45,566 bases of DNA. Origin: Escherichia phage vB_EcoS_XY1. The position numbers were made by a program, and so were the translations under genes. Shown one piece after another: positions 1-42,885 of this stretch (the first letter of the stretch is position 1; every line of letters begins with the position of its first letter). The stretch lies in sequence record NC_073325.1; one strand, 5' to 3'. The notes beneath the pieces were generated by a model. The model did not search any database. It was not told the DNA's origin and saw only the letters and a list, made by a program, of their open reading frames with translations.

Positions 1-127
1 GGGTCAGTCTGCGGCTTCCAGTTAGCGTTACCAACCGGGTTAAACGATGCGGGGACAACAACCGGCAGAGTCCCGGTATACGAGTACCACGTCTTGCTTA
101 CAGGGTCATACACCACTTTGTCTCGGT
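1..127. repeat. Direct terminal repeat; identical copy at 45440-45566 (circular closure overlap or terminal redundancy)
   Basis: Bases 1-127 match 45440-45566 exactly when read from the sequence. Confidence 0.9.
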
Positions 128-8280: not shown

Positions 8281-8632
8281 CGTTTCTGCCCTCGAAAATA
8301 GCGTCTAAGCTCATGATGATGTCAGATTCAAACATGTCTATATTCTGGCCCGAAACGGTGCTGTATGCCACTAAATCCGACCATCTTAACTGTTCGCGCG
8401 GGTACATCTTGATGCCGTCGTCATCCACTCGGCGGGTAAATTTGATTTCCCGGTACTTCTCGAAGGTGGTTAATAGCTCAGGGGGGCATTCTGGCCCGGT
8501 ATCCTGCGTTGCTTCCGGCGCGTCTTGCATAACCCCCATAGCAATTAGCGCGGCTTTATGTCCGTCGGCAATGCTGTCAAACTCCCGCCGTTTGTGGCGG
8601 GTTATGAAGTTCCAACGGGCAAACTGGAGCAA
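8273..8632 (-). CDS. Tail assembly chaperone frameshift extension (T segment of a G-T fusion)
   Basis: ORF in the -1 frame relative to the upstream chaperone, open across its stop codon; typical G/GT arrangement before a tape measure gene. Confidence 0.5.
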   Translation of the reverse strand: MLQFARWNFITRHKRREFDSIADGHKAALIAMGVMQDAPEATQDTGPECPPELLTTFEKYREIKFTRRVDDDGIKMYPREQLRWSDLVAYSTVSGQNIDMFESDIIMSLDAIFEGRNDG

Positions 8633-8637
8633 CGCGT

Positions 8638-9054
8638 CTACTTTTCCTGCAATTGGTGAAGCTGTTCGTTGTGGAAAACAACAACGTGTTCAGCGAGGCG
8701 TTTATATTGTGAGAAAAGAGTGTTCAGGTTCTCTTTATTAAATTCATCGTCGAGACTCCAACCGTTAACCAGTTCAAGTGCTAACTGGCGGTTAAGGTCC
8801 GTCGCGGCGTCTTCCATCTTAATATTGTATTCCGAGAAATCTTTCAGTTCCTCACATTTATCACGAAGCGGTTTCAATTTACCTAATGCCGCGCGGTACG
8901 CAAGTGTAAACGCCCTCATAGCTTTAACGGCAACGTCTGCCTCCGGTGAAACAACGTTCAGCCACTCCCCTGAATCGGTGCCGTCTTTCAGTGGTATTGG
9001 CATACGGGCGCCTTTTTCTGCCTCAGCTTCGTAATAAAAATCAGAAAGTTTCAT
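8638..9054 (-). CDS. Tail assembly chaperone (G-like)
   Basis: 138 aa, acidic, directly upstream of the -1 frame ORF and the tape measure; AAAGGA SD. Confidence 0.55.
   Translation of the reverse strand: MKLSDFYYEAEAEKGARMPIPLKDGTDSGEWLNVVSPEADVAVKAMRAFTLAYRAALGKLKPLRDKCEELKDFSEYNIKMEDAATDLNRQLALELVNGWSLDDEFNKENLNTLFSQYKRLAEHVVVFHNEQLHQLQEK
8641..8647 (-). other. Putative -1 programmed ribosomal frameshift site (GAAAAG followed by the TAG stop)
   Basis: A-rich slippery run at the last codons of 8638-9054; the -1 frame continues without a stop into 8273-8632. Confidence 0.4.
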
Positions 9055-9160
9055 TCTTTAATCCTTTGGTTAAGAGGTTACTGGTTAAGGTTAATGCGCC
9101 AGACGGGAACCACCCGCTTTTCGTGTGCGACACTAGGCGCAAAATAATTCTAACACATTA

Positions 9161-9197
9161 CTTGCACACCCCAACATAATAGGATACTATTCACTTA
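9161..9197. promoter_or_regulatory. 37-bp bidirectional promoter/operator element (inverted copy of 30192-30228)
   Basis: Plus orientation TTGCAC-N17-TACTAT; minus orientation TTGGTG-N16-TATTAT; contains the palindrome AATAG-N4-CTATT; 36 of 37 nt identical to the reverse complement of 30192-30228. Confidence 0.5.
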
Positions 9198-9231
9198 CAC
9201 CAACAATGTTAACTCAAACAGGAGCTACCCC

Positions 9232-9423
9232 ATGACAGGTATTACTATGTTCTTCTTAATCATTATCGTTTTAGTTTATTTTATCCCATTTCTCGTGGCG
9301 CATATGCGCAACCATAAAGCTAAATTAGCGATATTCATGGCTAATCTGTTTCTCGGTTGGGTTCTGCTGCCGTGGGTATTTATTTTAATCTGGGCGTGCA
9401 ACTCGAATGTCAAAGAGAAGTGA
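9232..9423 (+). CDS. Small membrane protein, superinfection-immunity (Imm) -like
   Basis: 63 aa with two hydrophobic helices; NLFLGW..W...IWA-type motif as in the Imm_superinfect family; AGGAG SD. Confidence 0.45.
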   Translation: MTGITMFFLIIIVLVYFIPFLVAHMRNHKAKLAIFMANLFLGWVLLPWVFILIWACNSNVKEK

Positions 9424-9461
9424 GCTAGTATAGGACAAATCCTAAACACGAGGAAGTAAGC

Positions 9462-10616
9462 ATGGCCCAGAAGAAAATAACCGACGAACAGTTACAGGAA
9501 GAATTGAACGCCGGGATGAAGATTATTGATATCGCCCGTAAATACGGCATCTCAGACCGCGTTATTCGTATCCGTAAAGCGAAGCTGGCTAAGAAAGGTG
9601 TAGGCCACGGGCGTGACGTTAGTCACCTTGTACCGGACGGCTACAAGATTAAAGGAACGTCGTCTCTGGTTGATGAGTTAGGCAACACTAAACTGCAATG
9701 GGTTAAGACCGACACCGATGCGGAACGTCAGGTCGAGTTAATGAAAGCCGTTGTGGACGAGATGAAAAAAGATTTACCCAAGTATAAGCCAGTCACTTTG
9801 GCCAAAAATGGGACAGATGACGACTTATTAAATCTTTACACAATAACAGACCATCACATAGGGATGTTGGCGTGTCAAGAAGAAGGCGGGGATGATTACG
9901 ACACCACAATCGCGGAATCTCTCGCGGTTGACTGGTTCAACAGTGCGGTTTGTATGAGTCCACAGAGTGGTGAATGTATCATTAACTTCTTAGGGGACCA
10001 AATGCACTACGACGGCATGAAGGCAATGACCCCTATGAGCGGTCATATTCTTTCAGCGGATAGTCGCCTGTTTAAAATGATACGCACGGCCATTAAGGTT
10101 ATCAAGCTGGCTGTCTCACTGTGCTTGCGAAAACACAAGAAGGTTAAACTTCTTATCTGTGAAGGTAACCACGACCTTAGTTCTTCTCTGTGGCTCCGGG
10201 AGATGTTCTACGAGGTATACACAAATGAGCCTCGCGTCGAGGTTAACCGGGAGGTGTCACCGTATTATGCGTACAAGTTCGGGGATTGTATGATTTCAGC
10301 ACATCACGGGCATTGTTCTAACTTTGCTAAGGTAGAGCAGGCTATAATCGGTAAGTACCGGGAGATGTACGGGCGGTGTAAGTTCACATATGTCCATACG
10401 GGGCACCTCCATCACAGGGCGGTTAAAGAGACTAATCTGCTAATTGTTGAGCAACACCAGACATTAGCGGCTAAAGATGAGTATTCTAGTAAGGGCGGCT
10501 ATTATTCAGGTAGAAGCGCAAATGTGATTACATACCACAAACGTTACGGGGAGGTGTCCCGCATAAGTATACCTGTCGAAATGCTGCGAGACATAAACCC
10601 AAAATCGACATACTAA
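9462..10616 (+). CDS. HTH domain fused to a calcineurin-like metallophosphoesterase
   Basis: N-terminal HTH (IIDIARKYGISDRVIR); metallophosphoesterase-like motifs TDHHIG, LGDQMHYDG, EGNHD, HHGH, TGHLHH. Confidence 0.45.
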   Translation: MAQKKITDEQLQEELNAGMKIIDIARKYGISDRVIRIRKAKLAKKGVGHGRDVSHLVPDGYKIKGTSSLVDELGNTKLQWVKTDTDAERQVELMKAVVDEMKKDLPKYKPVTLAKNGTDDDLLNLYTITDHHIGMLACQEEGGDDYDTTIAESLAVDWFNSAVCMSPQSGECIINFLGDQMHYDGMKAMTPMSGHILSADSRLFKMIRTAIKVIKLAVSLCLRKHKKVKLLICEGNHDLSSSLWLREMFYEVYTNEPRVEVNREVSPYYAYKFGDCMISAHHGHCSNFAKVEQAIIGKYREMYGRCKFTYVHTGHLHHRAVKETNLLIVEQHQTLAAKDEYSSKGGYYSGRSANVITYHKRYGEVSRISIPVEMLRDINPKSTY

Positions 10617-10631
10617 AATATAGGTGAAAGT

Positions 10632-11195
10632 ATGGATTGGAGTGAGGTTTTTAGCTACAAAAATGGCGTCCTATACTGGAAAGTCAAATCATGTCGCCGT
10701 AACGATGTGAATACAGGTGATGTGGCCGGGAGTTTGTGTAAAAACGGCTATTGGTATGTCATGTTTGGTAACCGTAAGTTTAAAAGGTCGAGGGTGGTGT
10801 ATGAGATGTTCAGTACGCTGTATGACAATGAGCCGCGTGTGTTCGTCGATACGTCACCGGATGTTTACAAGATGGTGCAACACGGCAAAACGACGCTGTT
10901 CTTCCATCACGGGCATAAAGCACGATTCGACGCTATCGAACCGGTTATGATTGCCAAGTTTCGTAAAGCGTTCGGCGAGAGTGTTTACAGCTACGCCCAC
11001 GTAGGCCACCTGCACCATCAGAAGATTGTAGAAAGCCGTAACATGATTGTTGAGCAACACCGCACCTTAGCGGCTAAAGATGCCTACGCCTCCCGCGGCG
11101 GTTGGATGTCGGGCCGTAGTGCAAATGTAATTACTTATAGCGCCGAATATGGCGAGGTCGCACGTTTAACTATTTCACCGGAGATGCTTGGATGA
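10632..11195 (+). CDS. Chimeric paralog: homing-endonuclease-type N-terminal DNA-binding region fused to a duplicate of the C-terminal ~100 aa of 9462-10616
   Basis: N-terminus NGVLYWKV...GDVAGS...NGYWYV...RSRVVY follows the pattern that precedes the catalytic motif in phage HNH endonucleases; C-terminus HHGH...HVGHLHH...IVEQHRTLAAKD...GRSANVITY is clearly homologous to the end of the upstream gene. Confidence 0.4.
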   Translation: MDWSEVFSYKNGVLYWKVKSCRRNDVNTGDVAGSLCKNGYWYVMFGNRKFKRSRVVYEMFSTLYDNEPRVFVDTSPDVYKMVQHGKTTLFFHHGHKARFDAIEPVMIAKFRKAFGESVYSYAHVGHLHHQKIVESRNMIVEQHRTLAAKDAYASRGGWMSGRSANVITYSAEYGEVARLTISPEMLG

Positions 11196-11680
11196 AAGAT
11201 ATTGTGATTTTCGATTTAGACGGGACATTGGCCGATGGTACTCATCGTTTACATCTGCTGCCGAAAGATAACTACGGCGAAACCTGGGCGTGGAAGCCTT
11301 TTAACATGGCCTGTAAAGATGATGCGCCGATATATGACAACATTCACTTGTGCAACACACTGTGGCATACCGGGATGACCATAATCATCCTTACCGGGCG
11401 CAGTGATGATGCTGAGGATGAGACCCGTAAATGGTTGCGAGAAAATAACGTTAAGTTTGACACGCTGATAATGCGCAGCAAACACGACAACAGAAAAGAC
11501 ATCGCAATTAAAGAAGAGGTGTTGCGTGCTATCGGGCTGGAGAGAATCTTGTGTGCGTTCGACGACTCTCCAGCGGTAATAAAGCATTTCCGTAACCTCG
11601 GCATAACCACTCACGCAGTTACCGAATACGACTGTAACGGGAACTCTACACACTTAAAATCACACGGGAGTGATAAATAA
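11192..11680 (+). CDS. HAD-superfamily phosphatase (nucleotidase or polynucleotide 3'-phosphatase-like)
   Basis: Motif I FDLDGTL, motif II ILTGR, downstream Lys and FDD motifs; ATGA start/stop overlap with upstream gene. Confidence 0.6.
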   Translation: MKDIVIFDLDGTLADGTHRLHLLPKDNYGETWAWKPFNMACKDDAPIYDNIHLCNTLWHTGMTIIILTGRSDDAEDETRKWLRENNVKFDTLIMRSKHDNRKDIAIKEEVLRAIGLERILCAFDDSPAVIKHFRNLGITTHAVTEYDCNGNSTHLKSHGSDK

Positions 11681-12249
11681 TGGCTAAGGTAATTATTCTT
11701 AATGGTCCTGCTGGTTGCGGGAAAGACACACTTGCTATGGCGCTGGTAGAAATGGGCTTTGCAAAAGGGACTACCAGTTTCAAGAATCCAATGTTCAATA
11801 TTGCGCTGGCGGCGTTAGGCCAGGATGCCTACCACGAGTTTCTCGACGGCTACGACGACCGTGCCCGGAAAGAAAAGCCAGAGGGTTTCCTTAATGGGTT
11901 GTCTCGGCGTCAGTTCATGATCGCCATTTCTGAGCAATTCATTAAACCAGTACTTGGTAGTGATTATTTCGGTAAGTATCTCGCTGAAAACTTGCCTGAC
12001 GGCGACGAAGTTTTTGTAGTGTCCGACGGTGGATTCGCCAGTGAAGTTGCCCCTATCGTCGCCGCAGGGCATGACGTGCGAATCGTCCGCCTCCATCGTG
12101 ACGGCTATACGTTCATCGGCGATAGCCGTGGCTATCTGTATGATATCGATGGTGCGGTATGTCATGACGTCGACGTCATTCCGGGCGAGATTACATTAAC
12201 AGCGGCCGCGATTGCTAATAGAATCCTGGGGATTTACCCAAATGCGTGA
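11680..12249 (+). CDS. P-loop kinase (dNMP kinase or polynucleotide kinase-like)
   Basis: Walker A GPAGCGKDT near the N-terminus, resembling phage dNMP kinase; start immediately after the HAD gene stop. Confidence 0.5.
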   Translation: MAKVIILNGPAGCGKDTLAMALVEMGFAKGTTSFKNPMFNIALAALGQDAYHEFLDGYDDRARKEKPEGFLNGLSRRQFMIAISEQFIKPVLGSDYFGKYLAENLPDGDEVFVVSDGGFASEVAPIVAAGHDVRIVRLHRDGYTFIGDSRGYLYDIDGAVCHDVDVIPGEITLTAAAIANRILGIYPNA

Positions 12250-12418
12250 ATGCACAACGGGGACAATATACGTTATCCGTGTATACGACGAAGAATGGGA
12301 CGAGTGGGTTGATATTTATGCCGTCGGTAGTAAGGAAGAGGCCTCTAAAGAAATGACAGAACGAAGTGACCGAGGCCAGTTAACTAACTTCTACGAAATG
12401 CCATTCAAAAGTGAGTAA
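12242..12418 (+). CDS. Hypothetical small acidic protein
   Basis: ATG at 12242 overlapping the upstream stop (track ORF 12212-12418 trimmed to the ATG). Confidence 0.3.
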   Translation: MRECTTGTIYVIRVYDEEWDEWVDIYAVGSKEEASKEMTERSDRGQLTNFYEMPFKSE

Positions 12419-12419
12419 G

Positions 12420-12448
12420 AAAAGGCCCCGAAAGGGGCCTTAGTTTTA
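12420..12448. terminator. Bidirectional rho-independent terminator (identical copy at 42857-42885)
   Basis: AAAAGGCCCCGAAAGGGGCCTTAGTTTTA: GC stem with A/T runs on both sides, between convergent gene ends. Confidence 0.7.
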
Positions 12449-13618
12449 TGCGTAACTAATACGTTGAATTACGATAGACGACTGGTACTGGTTGCCTGTG
12501 GACTGTCCTTCTATACTTTGGGTAATTGATTCCGGGCCAGATATTTCTGGTGTAACAGCCGTAAGTTCTGCACGTTTCAAACTGAAAGACATAGCCCCGT
12601 TTACCCCCGCCAGAATAGAGTTAATCTCTACCTGCTGTTCATTGATGAACTTCTGAATCATCGCCATGTCGTACAGCTTACCGGAGATGGAGAAGGTGTT
12701 AGCGGCGCGGCTACGTTCCACAAACGCTACGTTAGTGTTGCCAAGTTCGAACTGTGCGGATGCGCTGTTATCGTTGGTGATTGTCAGGCTATCACAACGC
12801 AACGGCATAGAACCATCGAACACAGAAACGTCAACCGAAGAGAACGGCTCGTCACCAAACGTGACAGAGGAGAAATCAGAACCCGTCGGCGGCGTGGTGA
12901 GAATCTCCTGGCTGCGCCCGATGAACGGGAAACTGCCAGTTACCATCGCATTAACGGCCTGCTCGACAGTGAAACCGGAAACTTCCACACCTTTAGTCAG
13001 CGTGTACGCGTCAGCCCCGCCACACTGCCCTTTGTACCACGTGAGAATAGAGAACGTCTTGCACTGGCTTCCTGTTTCCAGTTTGTCGCCAGTCTTAGCG
13101 GCGGTAGTTACGGTCTCAGTGGTCAGAGTATGTTGGATACCAGCACCTGTAACAACAGATGCGCTTACCTCGGTTACGATAAACGGTTTGGCGTTATCAC
13201 CTGTTAAGTCGGTAAACGCAATCAGGTCGCCCACTTCAACGCCGTCGGTAATAAAGCTGCCATCAGCACGGGTGAACGTCTTGCCCGCCGGTGCGACGGT
13301 AATCGACAGCCCGGACAGAGAAACACCGGATTGCCACGTAGAACCTAAAGCCCCAGCCAGCCAGTCGTCCTGGCTTTTCGAACTAAGCTCAATAGCGTAT
13401 TCCCCGCTAACCTGCTTGTTACCGGTGCGGATGGACGTAGTTTCACGACTGCCGTCCAGTTCGTTGGATGTCAGTGTGTCACGGGTAATGGCGGGAACAC
13501 CGCCCGTGTTACGTAATGGTGACCATACCGGGTTAGTCGGTGTTACGCCCGGGGTCACTTCCGCCACATAGAATTGCGCGGTATTCGCGCCCTTAAAAGG
13601 AGTTGTAGCCATATTCAC
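12446..13618 (-). CDS. Major tail protein (tail tube), putative
   Basis: 390 aa, Thr/Ser/Gly-rich; last structural gene before the chaperones (separated by the plus-strand cassette); ends in a strong terminator. Confidence 0.45.
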   Translation of the reverse strand: MNMATTPFKGANTAQFYVAEVTPGVTPTNPVWSPLRNTGGVPAITRDTLTSNELDGSRETTSIRTGNKQVSGEYAIELSSKSQDDWLAGALGSTWQSGVSLSGLSITVAPAGKTFTRADGSFITDGVEVGDLIAFTDLTGDNAKPFIVTEVSASVVTGAGIQHTLTTETVTTAAKTGDKLETGSQCKTFSILTWYKGQCGGADAYTLTKGVEVSGFTVEQAVNAMVTGSFPFIGRSQEILTTPPTGSDFSSVTFGDEPFSSVDVSVFDGSMPLRCDSLTITNDNSASAQFELGNTNVAFVERSRAANTFSISGKLYDMAMIQKFINEQQVEINSILAGVNGAMSFSLKRAELTAVTPEISGPESITQSIEGQSTGNQYQSSIVIQRISYA

Positions 13619-19086: not shown

Positions 19087-19129
19087 AGCTTAGCACATTT
19101 TTAGTGAAAAGTCAACTATTCGAATAGTT
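19087..19129 (-). promoter_or_regulatory. Promoter-like site with adjacent 16-bp perfect palindrome
   Basis: Minus orientation TTGACT-N17-TAAGCT; palindrome AACTATTCGAATAGTT at 19114-19129 abuts the -35. Confidence 0.35.
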
Positions 19130-19176: not shown

Positions 19177-19200
19177 ATTAAAAAGCCCCTTTCGGGGCCT
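19177..19200 (-). terminator. Rho-independent terminator after gene 19205-19666
   Basis: GGCCCCGAAAGGGGC hairpin followed by TTTTT on the minus strand. Confidence 0.6.
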
Positions 19201-19204
19201 AAGT

Positions 19205-19666
19205 TTATTCGGGCTTAGTGACCTTCGCCGCTTTGCTGACAGCCTCTACACCATCGGCATCAGTAACTTTAACGAAGTATTCCCCAACAGAATTAACCGT
19301 CAGAGACAAAGCCTCTTCCGGGGCGTTAACCACTTCCTTCCCGTCTTTGTACCAGGTCAGCGCATATGGTGCTTTGCCCGCCTTAACTTCGACAGCGATA
19401 TTTGCGCTGCCGTCTGCCAGTTCAGCGTCCTGCGGTTGTACGGAGAAATACACATCACCAGCATCCGCCAGGTACTGAATCTCATAAAGCATGCCCGCCG
19501 CCGGTAGCGCAATACCGGTTTTATCTGCAAACGGCATATCGTCTACGGGCGCACCCAGTACACTTTCATCTTCAATAAATACCACGTTCTCGCCGGAGCC
19601 AGGCACACGGGCGTACTGGACTACGCGACGCGACGGTACATCAGTTACTTTGAAAAATCCCATCAT
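19205..19666 (-). CDS. Hypothetical protein with Ig-like C-terminal region
   Basis: 153 aa; C-terminal YALTWYKDGKEV...EYFVKVTDADG resembles Ig-like folds. Confidence 0.35.
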   Translation of the reverse strand: MMGFFKVTDVPSRRVVQYARVPGSGENVVFIEDESVLGAPVDDMPFADKTGIALPAAGMLYEIQYLADAGDVYFSVQPQDAELADGSANIAVEVKAGKAPYALTWYKDGKEVVNAPEEALSLTVNSVGEYFVKVTDADGVEAVSKAAKVTKPE

Positions 19667-24265: not shown

Positions 24266-24526
24266 TCATTCCCCGCTCTCCTCTCGTGCGATACGTTGCT
24301 CAGTTTTAGTGATACCCCGGCGCGTGAATAACACCGGGCTTGTTTTAACGTGCGTCATCAGACGGTTGTTATAAATTACGTGGCGCTCGCAGTCCACGTC
24401 TTTGCTGTACTTCGCAATCGTCATTTCGTTGATGCCGGTTTGTCGGCACGTCTCGGCCATCGTGCCAAATTCTTTAATCAGGTTAGGAATGCTGGTAATC
24501 ATCCTAAGAAATTCCTCGTTGTCCAC
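24266..24526 (-). CDS. Hypothetical protein, possible DNA-binding
   Basis: 86-aa ORF, last gene before the packaging module; central RQTGINEMTIAKYSK could be an HTH. Confidence 0.35.
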   Translation of the reverse strand: MDNEEFLRMITSIPNLIKEFGTMAETCRQTGINEMTIAKYSKDVDCERHVIYNNRLMTHVKTSPVLFTRRGITKTEQRIAREESGE

Positions 24527-25936: not shown

Positions 25937-26021
25937 TTCTCTCTACTCCGTTCTCGTTGTCGATGAAGTAAATATAATAGGGTCTACGGTAATAGTCAAC
26001 TAGTCATTACAGAAAATAGAT

Positions 26022-28679: not shown

Positions 28680-28764
28680 CTAAATCCAGGTCTATAACGG
28701 TTCCTACTTTGAAGATGCCTTTAGTCAGTTCACTGTCTCTTTTTGTAACTTTAACTTCTAACAT
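28579..28764 (-). CDS. Hypothetical small protein
   Basis: 61-aa ORF in the same-strand early cluster. Confidence 0.3.
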   Translation of the reverse strand: MLEVKVTKRDSELTKGIFKVGTVIDLDLDDMVVYHGGIEWNVARTDNGFKLPGSETHFAAV

Positions 28765-29137
28765 TTCGTTTTCCTCTGTCTCGTCTGTGTAAATGAATAG
28801 TAGCCTATTCTATCTTAGTGTGCAAGTAAATTTTATTGGTGTTTTAAAGATAATCGTTCGCCACGAATCCAGTAGTACCTCGGGCGTCTGGCCCACTGGC
28901 ACCAGCGCATAACACGGTACTTGTTGCCGTCTGACGCAACAATAAGCCCGAATCGCTTTTCTCCGTTTCTACCGGTCCAGGTTACGATGTCATTCAGTTT
29001 CATTGTTGCGTCTCCTGCAATAGTCGCTTCGATTGTTGCGTTTGGTGAAAGTGTCGCCTTTTGACGACACTAAGTTAAAGTTGTACGCTGCTGTGTAGCA
29101 GCGTAAGTCACTCAGTAAAATCCCAAACTATTGAACA

Positions 29138-29982: not shown

Positions 29983-30164
29983 TTCGCCCCTTTGAATTTA
30001 AAATTGTTGCCGATGAGTTTTAAATTATCGCGGAAGGCGTAACCATGTTTCTTTCGTATAAGACCCCATACATCTACAGCGATACTGTATTCATTTTCGT
30101 CCTGGGTAACTATTACGTACTGTCCGCCGCGTTTCGTTTTAGCCAACTGACCCTTCTTAAACAT
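29979..30164 (-). CDS. Hypothetical small basic protein, first gene of the leftward early operon
   Basis: Start trimmed to the Met preceded by AGAGGAG; lies just downstream of the 30192-30228 promoter element. Confidence 0.3.
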   Translation of the reverse strand: MFKKGQLAKTKRGGQYVIVTQDENEYSIAVDVWGLIRKKHGYAFRDNLKLIGNNFKFKGAK

Positions 30165-30191: not shown

Positions 30192-30228
30192 TAAGTGAAT
30201 AGTAACCTATTATGTTGGGGTGTGCAAG
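30192..30228. promoter_or_regulatory. 37-bp bidirectional promoter/operator element (inverted copy of 9161-9197)
   Basis: TAAGTGAATAGTAACCTATTATGTTGGGGTGTGCAAG; minus orientation TTGCAC-N17-TACTAT; plus orientation TATTAT -10; palindrome AATAG-N4-CTATT. Confidence 0.5.
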
Positions 30229-30610
30229 AGATTCATTGAAAATGGTTACGTTGCCGTTGTGATTCTTCAGGTAGGGTTGTGCCTTTATTCTTATTACTTG
30301 GTAACTAAAGGGCAGGCCCTAAGCCTGCCCAATAATCGTTACATTTTTACGGTTGCGAATCTACGGCACTTTAAGAAAATCAGATACTTAAGATATATTC
30401 CGCCGATGGGAATAGAGCTTGCCCAGGGCAACCGGAGATACTTAGGAAGGAAAGTTACGATAATTCGAATGTTCAGTAAACTGCCGCCTAACACTTCGCG
30501 TTGGGCGCTCGTTTTCGGCGGGTTTTACAAGGTGAACAGGAATCAAAGTAACTAAGATATAGAAGCACCTTAAACGAAGATTTTCTTAATGTCAATAGGT
30601 GCGATTATGT

Positions 30611-30639
30611 TTGATTTCCCATTATTCGCAATGTATACT
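30611..30639 (+). promoter_or_regulatory. Sigma70-like promoter for the rightward early operon
   Basis: TTGATT-N17-TATACT about 33 nt upstream of the 30672 ATG. Confidence 0.45.
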
Positions 30640-30671
30640 TGGTTTCGTTAACTGATAATGGGGGTTTGAGA

Positions 30672-30842
30672 ATGACACAGAATGAAGTAGCCGAGCGTAT
30701 TGGGGTTACCCGTCGCACGCTGAATAACTGGTTAAAGAGTGGGAAGTTCCCGGATTGTTGTATCCGTATTATGGGCCGCCGGCAGCCGGGTACTTTCGAC
30801 CCGGAGAAAGTGGAAGCGTGGATTAAGGAGAATGTAAAATGA
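30672..30842 (+). CDS. Small HTH DNA-binding protein (AlpA/excisionase-like fold)
   Basis: MTQNEVAERIGVTRRTLNNWLKSGKFP; GGGGG SD; start trimmed from track ORF 30639. Confidence 0.45.
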   Translation: MTQNEVAERIGVTRRTLNNWLKSGKFPDCCIRIMGRRQPGTFDPEKVEAWIKENVK

Positions 30843-31072
30843 CCGAGTTCCAGTCCCGCGTATTTACGGCAGTCGTTTCATTAACCTGTAAAAAAGGGTC
30901 GTGCAGCGTTATGGACTTGCGCCGTAGTTATTTTAGGTACTATAGTTCCGCCATTATTGAAGGGTCGTTGAAGGTACTGGTTAAATCTGGTGTCGTGAAA
31001 AATGTTGGCGGGAAATATAGTGCTGTTGCCGAAGTTCGCGGAATGACCGCTACTTTAGAAGACCTGGAATAA
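30839..31072 (+). CDS. Hypothetical protein
   Basis: 77-aa ORF with ATGA overlap between the HTH gene and the primase-helicase. Confidence 0.3.
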   Translation: MTEFQSRVFTAVVSLTCKKGSCSVMDLRRSYFRYYSSAIIEGSLKVLVKSGVVKNVGGKYSAVAEVRGMTATLEDLE

Positions 31073-31130
31073 AAGAAAGCCCCGACGCGGTGAACGCCGA
31101 GGCTAAATTACTTGCTGAAGGAAATATAAC

Positions 31131-33389
31131 ATGTCCGATGTAATTTTATCCTACTCGTGGTCTCGTCGCAACGCGCGGGCCGAGAAAAAGGATATAAACG
31201 TCAGAACCACACACACGGCAACGCTGGGCGACCTGAAAGATTTAATCCAGCCGCTTGATGCTGTCCGTGACGGAATTAACCCGAAGACCGCACCCGGTTA
31301 TATCACCGCCGCGTGCGACTCCACACACAGCACCGTAAAAGACCCGGAAACCGGTGACTTTAAGCAAGCGCGTAAAGGCTTCTTCTATCGCTGTGATGCG
31401 TCTGTAAGCAAATCGTCGCTGGCGTATCTTGACTTCGATAGCGCAACACCGGAAGAGTATCGGGAAGCGGTGCGCCTGGTTAAGCGCAGCCGCCAGGCGA
31501 TGTGTCTCTACACCACGGCATCACATACCGACGAGTCGCCGCGCTTTCGCGTCGTCATGCCGCTGGCCCGCCCGGTTGAAGGTGGCGACATCATCCGTGT
31601 TCGCCATGGATTACTGGAGCACTTCTTCAAAGGCATGGGCGCGGACCGCAGCGGGTTCACTCTGTCGCAGCCGATGTACCTGCCGCCAGTTGGCTCTACT
31701 GTTATCTGGTCGCGCCGCAACGACCTGATTGACCCTGATGAGTTACTGGAAGGCGTCCCAGCCGTTGACATCAGCAGCGCATCTGATTACCAGATACCGG
31801 AAGAACTGCGCACCGCGTTTACAGATGCGTTTGAAGCACTGGCATTCGAGTACGGCGGCATCATGACGCCGCGTGGCCTTAAGATGCCAGCTACGCCAGA
31901 ACACGCAGAAAACTACAGCGACCCGACCCCGCGCCCGGACGACTTCCTGCTGTGCTTCCCGCGCGAGGGATATGAAGCGCCGAACGTAACGATGATTCAC
32001 GACACCGACATCACGGCAACCGAAGGCATGTCGCCGAAAGAGGTGTGGAAATACGCGTGTGATGCGACCGGGCTGCCGTTCAGTGAAGTCGCCGAGGCTA
32101 TCGGATGGGGTGCGCGTGAATCTGTTTCATGCAGCCTCGACGACCTGGAAGACGATGATGACTCAGAAGAGGACGAGCTACCGGAACCGGTAAAGGCTGA
32201 TTTCGTCGTTGAGGGGTACATGCCGTCAGATTGTATCTGGGATATTGTTGGGGAATCCGGCACGTACAAATCGTTCTATACGCTGGGGATGATGTACCTG
32301 AGCGCCGCCGGATACCGGTTTGCCGGGGCGGATACCCAGCGTTGCCACCATTTCTATATCGACGGTGAGGGAGGCGCAGCTACACGCACACGTATTGACG
32401 CGCTCGCGGCTAAATACGGCGAGGAAGGTAAAGATTACGTACATGTCATTGATATGGGTGAGGTGCTCGCCGCGCATGGTGATAAAAAAATCCCCGCGCT
32501 AATCCGCAGGATGCGTGAAGCTGCAGGGGACGAGCCTATTGGTATGGTCGCGTTCGATACCCTCAACCAGACGCTGGCCCTGACAATTGACAAGTTCGAC
32601 GAGAACAGTTCATCAACTGCAATTGGCATGGGTAAAGTTATCGCCATCCTTAAAAAAGTACGCGACGCAACTAAAGCCGCTGTGGGTGTCGTCCACCATA
32701 CGCCTAAGGGTGGAAAGAAAGCCCGTGGTAGCGGGGCGCTGTATGCCGGTGTTGATGTGGAGCTGACAATTGAGCGCGCTACCGACCGCCAGATAAACGT
32801 ATACCACTCGAAATTTAAGCATGGGCCTCAACAGAAAACGGTTGGCATGGTTCTGGAGTCGGTACAGTTCCGTGAAGCCCCGCCTCCGAAAGAATACCGT
32901 GCGGTTGAGTTCCTCGGTAGCACAGAGGAATACGGCACAATCGTAAACCTCGATCTGCCTGAGCCGCACAAGGCGCTTGTGCTGATGCCGTGGGGCTTCG
33001 AGCCGTTCAAAACTGACGAGGAGAAAGAGCGGGAAGAAGGGTTGACGAAAGAAGGTAAGCAAAAAGTAAAGGAAGAAGTTAAACGCGGCAGGGATGAAGT
33101 AAGGAAGGAGTCAATACTTTCGGCACTGGAAGACCTGCAACAGTCAGATGACACAGGTCGCGGTTTTACTCAGCAGCAGATAGTGGCTCGTTCCGGTGAC
33201 TTCTCTGTGACTAACACCCATCTTGATAAAATGTTGAAAGATGGAGAACTAATGCTTGGTTGCGATGCTAACGGCGAAGTAGTACCGAGAACATATCGTA
33301 TACCCGAAAGAATAGGTGATAGATTAAGGCCGAAGACACTATACGAACCAAATGAGATGCTGGTGGTGACAGAGGAGGATTTGGAATAG
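31131..33389 (+). CDS. Primase-helicase: primase-like N-terminal domain fused to a RecA-fold ATPase
   Basis: 752 aa; N-terminal LAYLDFD and SHTDESPRFRVVMPL motifs; Walker A GESGTYKS; Walker B-like MVAFDTL; VVHHTPKGG. Confidence 0.55.
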   Translation: MSDVILSYSWSRRNARAEKKDINVRTTHTATLGDLKDLIQPLDAVRDGINPKTAPGYITAACDSTHSTVKDPETGDFKQARKGFFYRCDASVSKSSLAYLDFDSATPEEYREAVRLVKRSRQAMCLYTTASHTDESPRFRVVMPLARPVEGGDIIRVRHGLLEHFFKGMGADRSGFTLSQPMYLPPVGSTVIWSRRNDLIDPDELLEGVPAVDISSASDYQIPEELRTAFTDAFEALAFEYGGIMTPRGLKMPATPEHAENYSDPTPRPDDFLLCFPREGYEAPNVTMIHDTDITATEGMSPKEVWKYACDATGLPFSEVAEAIGWGARESVSCSLDDLEDDDDSEEDELPEPVKADFVVEGYMPSDCIWDIVGESGTYKSFYTLGMMYLSAAGYRFAGADTQRCHHFYIDGEGGAATRTRIDALAAKYGEEGKDYVHVIDMGEVLAAHGDKKIPALIRRMREAAGDEPIGMVAFDTLNQTLALTIDKFDENSSSTAIGMGKVIAILKKVRDATKAAVGVVHHTPKGGKKARGSGALYAGVDVELTIERATDRQINVYHSKFKHGPQQKTVGMVLESVQFREAPPPKEYRAVEFLGSTEEYGTIVNLDLPEPHKALVLMPWGFEPFKTDEEKEREEGLTKEGKQKVKEEVKRGRDEVRKESILSALEDLQQSDDTGRGFTQQQIVARSGDFSVTNTHLDKMLKDGELMLGCDANGEVVPRTYRIPERIGDRLRPKTLYEPNEMLVVTEEDLE

Positions 33390-33406: not shown

Positions 33407-33622
33407 TTACGCCCCTTCACCTAGCGCCAGCCACTTGGCGTCTACTTCCAGCACTTCCGCCAGTTTAAACAGCGTTGCCGGGCGTACGTCCTGAGTTACC
33501 CCGAGTGCAAGCTGGTTAATCGCGCCCTGGGAAACGCCGGCCAGAACAGCCAGACGGCGCTGGGAGATACCGAGTTCTTTACGGCGTTGCTCTACACGGA
33601 TGCCTAGTTCAGATGGTTGCAT
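33407..33622 (-). CDS. Cro/XRE-family HTH transcriptional regulator
   Basis: 71 aa; LGISQRRLAVLAGVSQGAINQLALG HTH; AAGGAG SD; divergent from the rightward early promoters. Confidence 0.65.
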   Translation of the reverse strand: MQPSELGIRVEQRRKELGISQRRLAVLAGVSQGAINQLALGVTQDVRPATLFKLAEVLEVDAKWLALGEGA

Positions 33623-33642: not shown

Positions 33643-33671
33643 TTGATATGTGAATAGTACCATATTAATTA
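33643..33671 (+). promoter_or_regulatory. Upstream operator/promoter copy (TTGATA-TGTGAATAGTACCATAT-TAATTA)
   Basis: Imperfect copy of the operator core 44 bp upstream of the main copy. Confidence 0.4.
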
Positions 33672-33686
33672 TTTTAGAAAAGCCCA

Positions 33687-33715
33687 TTGACATGTGAATA
33701 GTTCGCTATTATAGT
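33687..33715 (+). promoter_or_regulatory. Near-consensus sigma70 promoter with embedded operator palindrome
   Basis: TTGACA-N17-TATAGT; spacer contains AATAG-TTCG-CTATT; 29 bp upstream of the 33744 ATG. Confidence 0.6.
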
Positions 33716-36782: not shown

Positions 36783-36811
36783 TTGACATCTGAATAGTTA
36801 GCTATTATAGT
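36783..36811 (+). promoter_or_regulatory. Sigma70 promoter with operator palindrome upstream of the SSB/polymerase operon
   Basis: TTGACA-N17-TATAGT with AATAG-TTAG-CTATT in the spacer; nearly identical to 33687-33715. Confidence 0.6.
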
Positions 36812-40079: not shown

Positions 40080-40378
40080 CCCCGGAAGGCAAGATTCAGA
40101 AATACGCAAAAGAGCGATTCGAGGCCATCGGTGGCCTCGTTCGTAAGCTGTCTTATGAGGGTAGAAACGGAGCGCCTGACCTGCTGGTAGTCCTACCGGG
40201 AGGGGTGATATGGTTCGTCGAGGTGAAGAAAGACGAAAACACGGAACCGGAGGCCCATCAGTTGCGGGAACACAAACGGCTTCGTAAACGTGACGCAAAT
40301 GTTTTTGTAGTAGGAACAAAAGAAGAGGTTGACGACCTAATAGCGAACTATTATAGTAGTCATACACCAACAATATAA
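40076..40378 (+). CDS. VRR-NUC domain nuclease
   Basis: NGAPDLLVVLPGGVIWFVEVKKDEN motif; start trimmed to the ATG at 40076. Confidence 0.55.
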   Translation: MTPEGKIQKYAKERFEAIGGLVRKLSYEGRNGAPDLLVVLPGGVIWFVEVKKDENTEPEAHQLREHKRLRKRDANVFVVGTKEEVDDLIANYYSSHTPTI

Positions 40379-42854: not shown

Positions 42855-42856
42855 AG

Positions 42857-42885
42857 AAAAGGCCCCGAAAGGGGCCTTAGTTTTA
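42857..42885. terminator. Bidirectional rho-independent terminator (identical copy at 12420-12448)
   Basis: AAAAGGCCCCGAAAGGGGCCTTAGTTTTA between convergent gene ends. Confidence 0.7.

What the first reader, a model, noticed from the sequence alone, without database searches (positions are those of the whole stretch)
9161..9197. 37-bp promoter/operator element present as an inverted pair 21 kb apart (partner at 30192-30228)
Seen: TAAGTGAATAGTA(A/T)CCTATTATGTTGGGGTGTGCAAG occurs at 30192-30228 and as its reverse complement at 9161-9197 with one mismatch. Each copy sits at a switch in transcription direction and can be read as a promoter on both strands (TTGCAC-N17-TACTAT one way, TATTAT -10 the other), with the palindrome AATAG-N4-CTATT at its centre. 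Inference: a shared bidirectional control element that one DNA-binding protein could use to regulate the accessory cassette, the tail genes, and both early operons together.
Basis: seen in the sequence. Interest (0 to 1): 0.6.

Follow-up and report, generated by a model that had tools for sequence, protein, structure and literature searches.

The report
Shared promoter-operator of a virulent coliphage
The 37-bp inverted pair is two copies of one core promoter (from just upstream of the -35 hexamer to the predicted +1) carrying a 14-bp palindromic operator; it belongs to a family of at least eight such promoters in this K1-type Kagunavirus, most likely controlled by the phage's own 434 Cro-like protein, which is ordinary phage regulatory design and was already partly noted in the literature.

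Summary
In detail: 9161-9197 and 30192-30228 are reverse complements with one mismatch (0 expected by chance). It is not a unique pair. The window is a complete Kagunavirus genome. The palindrome AATAG-N4-CTATT occurs at 6 exact and about 4 further plausible near-exact sites (12 hits at one mismatch or fewer vs 1.3 expected), all of the plausible ones at promoters.

The 37-mer is the core of a sigma-70-type promoter (TTGCAC-N17-TACTAT, -36 to +1). Copies A, B and a third copy C (28790-28826) each point at their own downstream genes, which explains the inverted orientation. In nine genomes A and B are 32-36/37 identical while their flanks are at chance level. Half-sites are invariant; the palindrome centre and the spacer vary.

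The same palindrome lies in the spacer of three TTGACN-N17-TATAGT promoters and over the -35 of a third class. Three registers argue for a repressor operator rather than an RNA polymerase recognition element.

Jerseyvirus keeps the palindrome. Cornellvirus carries TATTA-N6-TAATA at orthologous promoters instead. The best candidate binder is the 71-aa 434 Cro-like HTH (33407-33622). The AlpA-like protein is dispensable. Bidirectionality is weak: the reverse promoter is seen at A in only some genomes and not at B. The motif was already reported by PHIRE and wrongly assigned to a phage RNA polymerase.

The parts
9161..9197 (+). Copy A: class I core promoter. -35 TTGCAC 9162-9167, 17-nt spacer, -10 TACTAT 9185-9190, predicted +1 at 9197. 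It drives the + strand accessory cassette (superinfection immunity, phosphoesterase/exonuclease, polynucleotide kinase, dNMP kinase; 9232-12249).
   Evidence: sequence and coordinates; gene functions; conserved in 9 other Kagunavirus genomes, with flanks at chance identity.
9178..9191 (.). Operator palindrome AATAGGATACTATT in copy A. It overlaps the -10 hexamer and is centred near -12.5.
   Evidence: half-sites invariant when sites are anchored on the flanks only.
30192..30228 (-). Copy B: class I core promoter reading leftward. -35 at 30227-30222, -10 at 30204-30199, predicted +1 at 30192. It drives the small early genes from the ATG at 30164. Operator at 30198-30211.
   Evidence: conservation.
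28790..28826 (-). Copy C: third class I promoter (CTTGCACACTAAGATAGAATAGGCTACTATTCATTTA), inside the leftward early operon. It drives genes from the ATG at 28764. Operator at 28796-28809.
   Evidence: I2, 81% over 43 nt.
33687..33715 (+). Class II promoter TTGACA-N17-TATAGT (11/12 match to consensus). Operator O1 (33697-33710) lies in its spacer, centred at -18.5. It drives the rightward operon from 33744.
   Evidence: (scan), D4.
33653..33666 (.). O2: one-mismatch palindrome AATAGTACCATATT, with the mismatch itself conserved across Kagunaviruses. It lies at about +5 of the predicted promoter of the Cro-like gene.
33671..33698 (-). Predicted promoter of the Cro-like gene, TTCACA-N16-TAAAAT (10/12). 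O1 is centred at about -39.5 relative to its predicted start and O2 at about +5.
   Evidence: positions computed (inference).
33407..33622 (-). 71-aa HTH_3 (XRE/434 Cro-like) protein, the best candidate for the operator-binding protein. It is monocistronic and has its own terminator-like hairpin at 33418-33398.
   Evidence: Pfam HTH_3 2.3e-12. 434 Cro is the best PDB match by sequence (2e-6) and by fold (2cro, TM 0.74/0.81, 42% id). It is present in all motif-bearing loci sampled, though those loci were retrieved by anchoring on this protein. It is the only annotated regulator in the closest relative.
36783..36811 (+). Class II promoter TTGACA-N17-TATAGT upstream of the ssDNA-binding protein gene (36866). 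Operator at 36793-36806.
   Evidence: D4.
40329..40357 (+). Class II promoter TTGACG-N17-TATAGT upstream of 40390. Operator at 40339-40352.
25971..26004 (-). Class III promoter TTGACT-N17-TATATT. A one-mismatch palindrome (ACTAGTTGACTATT, 25991-26004) lies over its -35. The mismatch is conserved in Kagunavirus and Jerseyvirus. It reads towards the small genes, terminase and structural genes.
   Evidence: Jersey's record annotates a promoter at the orthologous place.
19087..19120 (-). Possible second class III site: AATAGTTGACTTTT (one mismatch) over a TTGACT -35, upstream of the spanin, scaffold and capsid genes. Weak -10.
   Evidence: the Cornellvirus palindrome occurs at the orthologous junction. 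Tentative.
9184..9212 (-). Candidate reverse promoter at copy A, TTAACA-N17-TAGTAT (9/12). Its -10 overlaps the forward -10, and the predicted divergent starts are about 20 bp apart. It is not conserved across the genus.
   Evidence: (in four of the ten genomes the -10 is TAGTAC and the -35 is altered); definition of bidirectional promoters from PMC10268837.
30672..30842 (+). Judged not to be the binder.
   Evidence: HTH_17 2.1e-7; 86-89% identical in Jerseyvirus; absent from L017 and L035, which keep all sites; absent from Cornellvirus.

Best explanation
The 37-bp repeat is the core, from position -36 to +1, of a host sigma-70-type promoter (TTGCAC-N17-TACTAT). It carries a 14-bp dyad operator, AATAG-N4-CTATT, laid over the -10 hexamer. 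The genome has three such class I promoters (A, B, C). Each faces its own operon, which is why A and B are inverted relative to each other. The same operator sits in the spacer of three strong class II promoters for the replication genes, beside and downstream of the promoter of the regulator's own gene, and in weakened form over the -35 of one or two class III promoters.

A phage-encoded dimeric helix-turn-helix protein, most probably the 71-aa 434 Cro-like protein encoded at 33407-33622, binds these operators and blocks RNA polymerase. One early protein would thereby coordinate, and with time turn down, most early and middle transcription of this virulent phage, and would autoregulate.

Shown here: the repeat family, its promoter context and orientation, selection on the half-sites, the genus-specific operator switch, and the fold and distribution of the candidate proteins. 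Inferred: which protein binds, that binding represses, and the transcription start sites.
For: (1) Family, not pair. There are 6 exact palindromes against 0.03 expected, the top non-terminator palindrome in an unbiased scan. There are 12 hits at one mismatch or fewer against 1.28 expected.
(2) Promoter identity. All three class I copies lie 25-35 nt upstream of an RBS and ATG in the TTGCAC-to-TACTAT direction. Class II sites score 11/12 against the sigma-70 consensus.
(3) Sharp boundaries. In 9 genomes A vs B is 32-36/37 identical over the core but only 10-14/40 upstream and 7-16/40 downstream, and the changes at A and B are independent.
(4) Operator signature. With sites anchored only on their flanks, both half-sites are invariant or nearly so, while the central 4 bp and the neighbouring spacer vary in 30-60% of distinct versions. 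This holds for class I (21 versions, 69 instances) and class II (35 versions, 86 instances). The left half-site lies outside both hexamers.
(5) Three different registers relative to the promoter (centres near -12.5, -18.5 and -33.5) fit steric repression and do not fit a polymerase recognition element.
(6) The motif follows phage lineage, not host. Kagunavirus (E. coli) and Jerseyvirus (Salmonella) share it (7 vs 1.19 in Jersey). Cornellvirus (Salmonella) has it only at chance level (1 vs 1.08). Cornellvirus instead carries TATTA-N6-TAATA, 9 vs 0.94 expected, at positions orthologous to Kagunavirus sites; that motif is near background in the window (3 vs 1.0).
(7) Candidate protein. HTH_3; best solved relative is 434 Cro by sequence (2e-6) and by fold; present in all three genera and in every motif-bearing locus; the only annotated regulator in a 98.7%-identical relative. 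Its gene is flanked by a strong and a weak operator at divergent promoters. A related phage's RNA-seq classes a helix-turn-helix gene among only four early genes; I take it to be this gene's orthologue from its position after the AAA/primase gene in that paper's numbering, which was not verified (PMC12645636).
(8) 434 and P22 repressors read the central operator base pairs only indirectly (PMC3317979), which matches the variable centre seen here.
Against: No binding or transcript 5'-end data exist, so the binder, the sign of regulation and the start sites are all inferred.

The recognition helices do not track the operator neatly. The window has SQGAINQ, Jersey SQSLITH and Cornellvirus TQSAISH. 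Jersey therefore resembles Cornellvirus more than the window at the positions that contact bases in 434 Cro, yet Jersey shares the window's operator.

The IMG/VR loci were retrieved by anchoring on this protein, so its presence in all of them is partly by construction.

Class I hexamers match the sigma-70 consensus only 7/12 and were not picked up by the consensus scan, so these promoters may need a positive factor.

The right half-site overlaps the -10 in class I, so part of its conservation is promoter constraint.

The spacer ACCCCAAYAT shared by A and B is more conserved than the model requires.

The published RNA-seq classes the superinfection-immunity gene and the DNA polymerase as late. 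However, its sampling (5-120 min with a 30-min latent period, MOI 100) cannot resolve timing within one cycle.

Small early proteins of unknown function cannot be excluded as the binder.
Confidence: 0.6

Rival explanations
1. One reading: each 37-mer is a truly bidirectional control element that fires on both strands. One protein bound at the central palindrome would then co-regulate the accessory cassette and tail genes (at A) and both early operons (at B).
For: At A the consensus scan finds a reverse promoter, TTAACA-N17-TAGTAT (9/12), whose -10 overlaps the forward -10. The predicted divergent starts are about 20 bp apart, within the 7-25 bp definition of bacterial bidirectional promoters (PMC10268837). 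A conserved structured leader on the chaperone-sense strand lies just downstream, so sense transcripts do cross this region. The tail genes are separated from the upstream late genes by the opposite-strand cassette and a bidirectional terminator (D3).
Against: The reverse promoter is present in only 6 of the 10 genomes compared. In the others its -10 is TAGTAC and its -35 is altered. In Jersey the spacing is incompatible. At B the one A/B mismatch gives TAGTAA and there is no -35. Closer promoter-like sites exist for the AlpA-like/primase operon at 30371-30399 and 30611-30639. The 20-bp spacing is not the 18-bp optimum.
Confidence: 0.15
2. The palindrome is bound by the AlpA/excisionase-like HTH_17 protein (30672-30842). 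It would act either as a repressor or, like Pseudomonas AlpA, as an antiterminator loaded onto RNA polymerase at a promoter-embedded site.
For: The protein is 86-89% identical between Kagunavirus and Jerseyvirus, the two genera that share the palindrome, and it is undetectable in Cornellvirus, which lacks the palindrome. Pseudomonas AlpA recognises an element within the promoter and then lets polymerase bypass a downstream terminator (PMC9371919, abstract seen). This genome has many intrinsic terminators (D3, D6).
Against: Two Kagunavirus loci (L017, L035) have replaced the AlpA-like gene and its neighbour with unrelated genes, yet keep every operator, including identical B and C copies. Within Kagunavirus the protein varies from 71% to 100% identity while the motif is invariant. 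It matches HTH_17 and not the Phage_AlpA family, and has no significant solved relative. Three different registers do not fit a factor that must dock on polymerase in a fixed geometry.
Confidence: 0.07
3. The published reading: the repeats are phage-specific promoters recognised by a phage-encoded RNA polymerase, or by host polymerase redirected by a phage factor. The motif would then be a positive recognition element.
For: PHIRE flags the same 20-mers, and two genome papers list them as phage promoters with consensus tgAATAGTa-ccTATTat-T (PMC9825357; PMC7203180; annotation). Class I hexamers are only 7/12 to the sigma-70 consensus, so a helper is conceivable.
Against: No RNA polymerase or sigma-like gene is present. 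The large ORFs are DNA polymerase A, primase-helicase, SNF2 helicase, endosialidase and tail proteins. The closest relative's full annotation has none either. The motif occupies three different positions relative to good -35 and -10 hexamers, and it is dyad-symmetric with a variable centre. That is the signature of a dimeric binding protein and not of a polymerase recognition element.
Confidence: 0.05
4. No dedicated protein is involved. The palindrome would be a by-product of -10-like sequences on both strands, or a site for a host global regulator.
For: Both half-sites resemble -10 hexamers (TACTAT, TAGTAT, TATTAT), and -10 symmetry is known to generate divergent promoters.
Against: In class II promoters the palindrome lies in the spacer, where neither half serves as a -10, yet the left half-site is nearly invariant. 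Two Salmonella-infecting genera carry different palindromes at orthologous promoters, while genera infecting E. coli and Salmonella share one. That argues against a host factor. My comparison from memory with the CRP, ArgR, Fur and MarA consensus sites found no fit (not a tool result).
Confidence: 0.05

Closest known systems
Phage 434 Cro / cI (and P22 c2) with their OR/OL operators
   Same: The candidate binder is a 71-aa HTH_3 protein whose best solved relative is 434 Cro by sequence (2e-6) and by fold (TM 0.74/0.81, 42% identity). The operator is a 14-bp dyad with conserved outer 5 bp and a variable, presumably non-contacted, central 4 bp. 434 and P22 repressors likewise read the central operator base pairs only indirectly (PMC3317979). 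The 14-bp ACAA-N6-TTGT form of 434 operators is from my own knowledge. The operators overlap promoters, and the regulator gene is transcribed divergently from a replication operon with a strong and a weak operator between them.
   Different: The phage is virulent: no integrase or cI-type repressor is annotated in the closest relative, and the fBC-Eco01 paper reports no lysogeny genes. The operators are dispersed at 8 or more promoters over about 31 kb rather than clustered as tripartite OR and OL. The half-site is AATAG, not ACAA. There is no evidence of cooperative binding. Binding itself is untested.
PHIRE-predicted 'phage promoters' of Kagunaviruses (fBC-Eco01, PMC9825357; Golestan, PMC7203180)
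   Same: It is the same motif. Consensus tgAATAGTa-ccTATTat-T at seven sites is annotated at the orthologous place upstream of the superinfection immunity gene.
   Different: Those papers attribute the sites to a phage-encoded RNA polymerase, which these phages do not have. They do not recognise the dyad or operator nature of the motif, the promoter classes, the -36..+1 unit, the binder, or the genus-level switch.
Restriction-modification controller (C) proteins, e.g. C.AhdI and C.BclI
   Same: They share the small XRE-type fold (Foldseek ranks 2-5). From my own knowledge, they act as timing devices that bind a strong and a weak palindromic operator at their own promoter, activating first and repressing later. 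This resembles O1 (about -39.5) and O2 (about +5) at the Cro-like gene's predicted promoter.
   Different: There is no restriction-modification system here. The regulon extends to many other promoters. The activating role of O1 is pure inference from position.
Dispersed-operator phage repressors (P1 C1, mycobacteriophage L5 gp71 'stoperators', phiC31 conserved inverted repeats) - from my own knowledge
   Same: One phage protein with many cognate sites scattered across the genome controls several operons at once.
   Different: Those systems maintain lysogeny. L5 sites are asymmetric and lie within transcription units. Here the phage is virulent and every site sits on a promoter.
Bacterial bidirectional promoters arising from -10 symmetry (Warman et al. 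2021, as summarised in PMC10268837)
   Same: At copy A the forward (TACTAT) and reverse (TAGTAT) -10 hexamers overlap, and the predicted starts are about 20 bp apart, within the 7-25 bp definition.
   Different: The spacing is not the 18-bp optimum. The reverse promoter is not conserved in the genus and is absent at B. The palindrome is also conserved where it cannot act as a -10, in the class II promoters.

Membership tests
Sigma-70-type bacterial promoter | -35 and -10 hexamers separated by 16-18 bp | tested here: met
   Class I: TTGCAC-N17-TACTAT (7/12 to consensus) at A, B and C. Class II: TTGACA-N17-TATAGT (11/12). The hexamers are invariant across 21 and 35 distinct versions. Class I falls below the threshold of the consensus scan.
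Sigma-70-type bacterial promoter | Correct placement and orientation relative to a downstream gene | tested here: met
   The predicted +1 lies 25-35 nt upstream of an RBS and ATG for A, B and C. Class II sites lie upstream of 33744, 36866 and 40390.
Sigma-70-type bacterial promoter | A mapped transcription start site / transcription by the sigma-70 holoenzyme | not testable with these tools
   No 5'-end data were found. The only RNA-seq on a relative is not start-site resolved.
434 Cro/cI-type operator (site for a dimeric HTH_3 protein) | Dyad-symmetric site of about 14 bp with conserved outer positions and a variable centre | tested here: met
   AATAG-N4-CTATT; half-sites invariant or nearly so and the centre variable when sites are anchored on their flanks; strong enrichment.
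434 Cro/cI-type operator (site for a dimeric HTH_3 protein) | A cognate Cro/cI-family protein encoded by the same genome | tested here: met
   33407-33622: Pfam HTH_3 2.3e-12; 434 Cro 2e-6; fold match to 2cro, TM 0.74/0.81.
434 Cro/cI-type operator (site for a dimeric HTH_3 protein) | Operator and protein co-vary between lineages | tested here: inconclusive
   The operator switches to TATTA-N6-TAATA in Cornellvirus, where the orthologue is 41-43% identical. However, the recognition helix of Jersey (same operator as the window) resembles Cornellvirus more than the window.
434 Cro/cI-type operator (site for a dimeric HTH_3 protein) | Clustered tripartite operators (OR1-3, OL1-3) flanking an immunity region with cI and cro | tested here: not met
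   Only two sites, 44 bp apart, lie beside the HTH gene. The other sites are dispersed, and there is no second repressor gene.
434 Cro/cI-type operator (site for a dimeric HTH_3 protein) | Demonstrated specific binding | not testable with these tools
   This needs EMSA, footprinting or ChIP.
Phage-RNA-polymerase promoter (the literature's PHIRE label) | A phage-encoded RNA polymerase | tested here: not met
   No RNAP or sigma domain was found in any large ORF. None is annotated in the 98.7%-identical relative.
Phage-RNA-polymerase promoter (the literature's PHIRE label) | A fixed position of the motif relative to the transcription start | tested here: not met
   The motif occupies three registers relative to the -35 and -10 hexamers.
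Bidirectional promoter (-10 symmetry) | Divergent starts 7-25 bp apart from overlapping -10 elements | tested here: inconclusive
   Predicted at A only (about 20 bp). It is not conserved in 4 of 10 genomes and is absent at B. No start-site data exist.
AlpA-type promoter-loaded antiterminator site | The AlpA-family protein co-occurs with its binding element | tested here: not met
   L017 and L035 lack the protein but keep all sites. The protein matches HTH_17 and not Phage_AlpA.

The most novel reading that the evidence does not exclude
A single 71-aa Cro-like protein is the master timer of the whole transcription programme of a virulent phage subfamily. It would act through operators built into at least eight host-type promoters in three registers. 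It would repress most of them, possibly activate its own promoter from about -39.5, and shut that promoter off from about +5. Its operator specificity would have been rewritten in place at orthologous promoters between genera (AATAG-N4-CTATT in Kagunavirus and Jerseyvirus, TATTA-N6-TAATA in Cornellvirus). That would make a compact natural example of regulator-operator co-evolution across a whole regulon.
Probability: 0.35. Interest if true: 0.5.

Novelty: new member of a known kind. Interest (0 to 1): 0.3.

Why it matters
Kagunaviruses and Jerseyviruses are among the most frequently isolated candidate therapeutic phages for E. coli K1/UPEC and Salmonella, yet their transcriptional programme is essentially undescribed. 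The recurring motif has been mislabelled in genome papers as a promoter for a non-existent phage RNA polymerase.

Recognising it as a sigma-70 core promoter with a built-in operator gives a testable map of at least eight regulated promoters and a short list of one likely regulator. It also corrects the annotation and supplies well-defined, compact, regulator-controllable promoter parts.

The genus-level operator switch at orthologous promoters is a tidy system for studying how a regulator and its whole set of sites change together. It is not a new kind of mechanism.

Tried and rejected
(1) Phage-RNAP promoters (the literature label). Rejected because there is no RNAP or sigma gene.

(2) AlpA-like protein as the binder. 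This looked attractive at first: it is 86-89% conserved in the two genera that share the motif and absent from Cornellvirus. It was rejected after L017 and L035 were found to lack it yet keep all sites.

(3) Gene conversion or a recent duplication as the reason for the 36/37 identity. Rejected because A and B accumulate independent changes in other genomes yet stay 32-36/37 identical, with flanks at chance level.

(4) An RNA-level role for the palindrome. Rejected because it lies upstream of the predicted start in every class.

(5) A NinH-like protein (24266-24526; Pfam 23.3 bits, below the cut-off) as the binder. It is 64-71% identical to all three genera and so does not track the operator switch.

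(6) Rfam at gathering thresholds found nothing anywhere in the window.

(7) The K1B4 RNA-seq was examined for timing evidence. The sampling is too coarse and no per-gene time table is held.

(8) Loci fetched by accession were at first unreadable from Python. This resolved itself after later fetches.

(9) The first class II conservation profile was contaminated by class III promoters that share the anchors. It was redone.

(10) Host-factor consensus sites (CRP, ArgR, Fur, MarA) were compared from memory only. None fits.

(11) Inversion of the 21-kb segment by recombination between the inverted copies was considered. No rearranged genome was seen among the loci examined, and this was not pursued.
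Full report
**Observation.** The 37-mer is at 30192-30228 (+) and, as its reverse complement, at 9161-9197, with one mismatch. No match is expected in dinucleotide-preserving shuffles (I1). The hexamers TTGCAC (9162-9167) and TACTAT (9185-9190) are 17 nt apart, and the palindrome AATAG-N4-CTATT is at 9178-9191.

**Context.** The first and last 127 nt of the window are identical (D1), so the window is a complete, circularly permuted genome of about 45.4 kb. It is a Kagunavirus (Guernseyvirinae), 98.7% identical over the queried 1.1-kb stretch (8600-9700) to Escherichia phage vB_VIPECOTH07, and it has an endosialidase (K1-specific) tailspike.

- Copy A lies between the tail assembly chaperone gene (-, 8638-9054) and a rightward accessory cassette. 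The cassette encodes a superinfection immunity protein, a phosphoesterase/exonuclease, a polynucleotide kinase and a dNMP kinase.
- Copy B lies between the first small gene of the long leftward operon (ATG at 30164) and an ORF-poor 440-nt stretch that precedes the AlpA-like gene, a 77-aa gene and the primase-helicase.

**A family, not a pair.**

- A third 37-mer (C, 28790-28826) has the same orientation as B (I2).
- The core palindrome is exact at six sites. There are 12 hits at one mismatch or fewer against 1.28 expected.
- In an unbiased scan of all spaced palindromes it is the top non-terminator signal (6 vs 0.03 expected).
- Two published Kagunavirus genome papers had already picked up this repeat with PHIRE. 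One gives the consensus tgAATAGTa-ccTATTat-T at seven sites, attributed to a 'phage-encoded RNA polymerase' (PMC9825357; PMC7203180; annotation).
- This genome and its closest annotated relative encode no RNA polymerase or sigma factor, so that attribution cannot be right.

**Anatomy.** Three promoter classes carry the palindrome.

- *Class I (A, B, C):* TTGCAC-N17-TACTAT. The palindrome covers the last 7 spacer bases, the -10 hexamer and one more base, and is centred near -12.5. In this direction all three copies lie 25-35 nt upstream of an RBS and ATG. The inverted orientation of A and B therefore simply reflects that each promoter faces its own operon.
- *Class II (33687-33715, 36783-36811, 40329-40357; all +):* TTGACN-N17-TATAGT, scoring 11/12 to consensus in the neutral scan. 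The palindrome fills the spacer and is centred near -18.5. These promoters precede replication genes, including the ssDNA-binding protein gene.
- *Class III (25971-26004, and possibly 19087-19120; -):* TTGACT-N17-TATATT, with a one-mismatch palindrome over the -35. The mismatch itself is conserved in Kagunavirus and Jerseyvirus.

**Comparative evidence.** I fetched 74 loci around relatives of the Cro-like gene and 27 loci around the chaperone gene from IMG/VR, plus reference genomes.

- In nine Kagunavirus genomes where both copies could be paired, A and B are 32-36/37 identical over the core. They are only 10-14/40 identical upstream and 7-16/40 downstream. The differences at A and B arise independently.
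- The unit is therefore under purifying selection, it is not homogenised by conversion, and its edges coincide with -36 and the predicted +1.
- With sites anchored only on flanking sequence, both half-sites are invariant in class I (21 distinct versions, 69 instances). Spacer positions 3-10 and the palindrome centre vary in 40-60% of versions.
- Class II behaves the same way (35 versions, 86 instances).
- The left half-site lies outside both hexamers in both classes. Its invariance therefore needs an explanation other than polymerase contacts.
- Invariant outer 5 bp with a free central 4 bp is the classical signature of a dimeric helix-turn-helix operator. 434 and P22 repressors read the operator centre only indirectly (PMC3317979).
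- Occupying three different registers argues for steric repression and against a positional activator or a polymerase recognition element.

**Lineage specificity.**

- Jerseyvirus keeps the palindrome, extended to TAATAG-N4-CTATTA, at orthologous promoters (7 vs 1.19 expected).
- Cornellvirus does not (1 vs 1.08).
- Cornellvirus instead has TATTA-N6-TAATA, 9 vs 0.94 expected. Several of its sites are orthologous to Kagunavirus sites: the cassette/chaperone junction, the start of the early operon and the spanin/scaffold junction, and, by position against the SP-031 annotation, sites upstream of the probable ssb gene and just beyond the DNA polymerase gene. It lies in the same promoter frame, for example TTGCAA-N17-TAATAT.
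- The Cornellvirus motif is near background in the window (3 vs 1.0).
- Jerseyvirus and Cornellvirus both infect Salmonella, while Kagunavirus infects E. coli. The motif therefore follows phage lineage and not host, which points to a phage-encoded binder.

**Which protein?** There are two recognisable DNA-binding proteins.

*AlpA-like HTH_17 protein (30672-30842).* It first looked favoured, because it is 86-89% identical in Jerseyvirus and undetectable in Cornellvirus. But two Kagunavirus loci (L017, L035) have replaced it and its neighbour with unrelated genes while keeping every site, including identical B and C copies. Within Kagunavirus it varies from 71% to 100% identity while the motif stays constant. 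It is not required.

*71-aa HTH_3 protein (33407-33622).*
- It is present in every motif-bearing locus and in all three genera. This is partly by construction, because those loci were retrieved by anchoring on it.
- It is the only regulator annotated in the closest relative.
- Its best solved relative is 434 Cro, by sequence (2e-6) and by fold (pLDDT 82; 2cro TM 0.74/0.81, 42% identity).
- Its gene is a self-contained unit. The predicted promoter TTCACA-N16-TAAAAT (10/12) diverges from the strongest class II promoter, and a terminator-like hairpin follows the gene.
- The exact operator O1 lies at about -39.5 relative to the predicted start of this promoter, and the conserved weaker O2 at about +5.
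- In RNA-seq of a related phage, a helix-turn-helix gene is one of only four genes that peak within the latent period (PMC12645636). I take it to be this gene's orthologue from its position after the AAA/primase gene in that paper's numbering; this was not verified. That time course is too coarse for more.

*Caveat.* At the helix positions that contact bases in 434 Cro, Jersey (SQSLITH) resembles Cornellvirus (TQSAISH) more than the window (SQGAINQ). Protein-operator covariation is therefore suggestive and not clean. A weak NinH-like protein does not track the switch. Unknown small proteins cannot be excluded.

**Bidirectionality.**

- The neutral scan does find TTAACA-N17-TAGTAT (9/12) on the - strand at A. 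Its -10 overlaps the forward -10, and the predicted divergent starts are about 20 bp apart. That is inside the 7-25 bp definition of bidirectional promoters but not at the usual 18 bp (PMC10268837).
- This promoter is intact in only 6 of the 10 genomes compared and is not recognisable in Jersey.
- At B the single A/B mismatch converts it to TAGTAA, and there is no -35.
- Other promoter-like sites lie closer to the AlpA-like/primase operon.
- I therefore regard the conserved function as unidirectional. A possible lineage-specific reverse promoter at A remains.

**Verdict.** It is, however, one instance of a well-known design, Cro-type repression of sigma-70 promoters. It is a member of a larger family that was already noticed in the literature and mislabelled there. 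Its bidirectional and tail-gene aspects are weak. What is added here:
- the -36..+1 unit;
- the three registers;
- the genus-level operator switch;
- the exclusion of the AlpA-like candidate and of a phage RNA polymerase;
- the nomination of the 434 Cro-like protein as the binder.

Binding, the sign of regulation and the start sites remain to be shown experimentally.

Noticed in passing
window 9096-9140, - strand (between copy A and the tail assembly chaperone ATG at 9054): A conserved structured leader: an outer stem (GCGCC/GGCGC) enclosing two hairpins (GTGT-CGC-ACAC and GCGGG-TGGTT-CCCGT). The consensus fold has 13 pairs, 5 of them with compensatory changes across Kagunavirus, Jerseyvirus, Cornellvirus and more distant IMG/VR contigs. 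The G.U wobbles fit only the chaperone-sense strand. No Rfam family matches. Function unknown; possibilities are a 5' stabiliser, a translational operator or a put-like element.
   Followed up: partly
L003 (Salmonella phage FSL SP-031) 14066, 26544, 33280; L004 (Shemara) 8263, 14981, 38486: Cornellviruses carry a different palindrome, TATTA-N6-TAATA (9 vs 0.94 expected at one mismatch or fewer), at promoters orthologous to the Kagunavirus operator sites. This looks like an in-place operator switch between genera.
   Followed up: partly
window 30672-33389; loci L017 12559-13144 and L035: The module AlpA-like gene + 77-aa gene + primase-helicase is mosaic within Kagunavirus. AlpA-like identity ranges from 71% to 100%. 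The 77-aa gene is often absent. The primase is only 31-32% identical in several genomes. In L017 the two small genes are replaced by a 149-aa winged-helix-like protein and a 47-aa zinc-finger-like protein. The window's AlpA-like protein is closer to Jersey's (88%) than to that of many Kagunaviruses.
   Followed up: partly
window 30229-30671: An ORF-poor stretch of about 440 nt to the right of copy B. It has a terminator-like hairpin on the - strand (30330-30310), short repeats (AGATACTTARGA, twice) and a conserved block GAAGAATCACAACGGCAACGTAAC just upstream of B's -35 in all Kagunaviruses. Jersey has an equivalent non-coding gap of about 455 nt. It could be an origin or an uncharacterised RNA. 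There is no Rfam hit.
   Followed up: partly
window 9462-11195 (repeat copies at 10443-10479 and 11046-11082): The DNA-repair exonuclease/phosphoesterase gene is a single 1131-nt gene in the closest relative. Here it is followed by an extra 187-aa ORF whose N-terminus matches HNH endonucleases and whose C-terminus repeats the end of the exonuclease. A 37-nt direct repeat (92% identical) marks the duplication. It looks like a homing-endonuclease insertion.
   Followed up: no
window 12418-12449 and 42855-42886 (also 19178-19209): Two 100%-identical 32-nt GC hairpins (AGAAAAGGCCCCGAAAGGGGCCTTAGTTTTAT) sit at the two convergent gene junctions: accessory cassette vs tail tube gene, and replication operon vs tailspike. 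They look like bidirectional terminators. A 69%-identical relative is at 19178.
   Followed up: no
window 9198-9209 and 40362-40372: The first transcribed bases downstream of copy A (ACACCAACAATG) recur downstream of the class II promoter at 40329-40357 (ACACCAACAATA). They are conserved at both places in other Kagunaviruses and Jerseyviruses. This is a shared 5' leader motif of unknown meaning.
   Followed up: no
loci L013 13351, L021 14750, L008 14663, L029 14567; Jersey L002 39668: Some relatives have an additional exact palindrome with no recognisable -35, next to a GCTGCT-ACAC-AGCAGC hairpin between the B and C equivalents. The window lacks this site.
   Followed up: no
window 1-127 and 45440-45566: Identical 127-nt ends show that the window is a whole circularly permuted genome with an assembly overlap. 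The 890-aa endosialidase tailspike gene (42883-45555) ends within the overlap, and the tail genes continue on the other side of the junction.
   Followed up: yes
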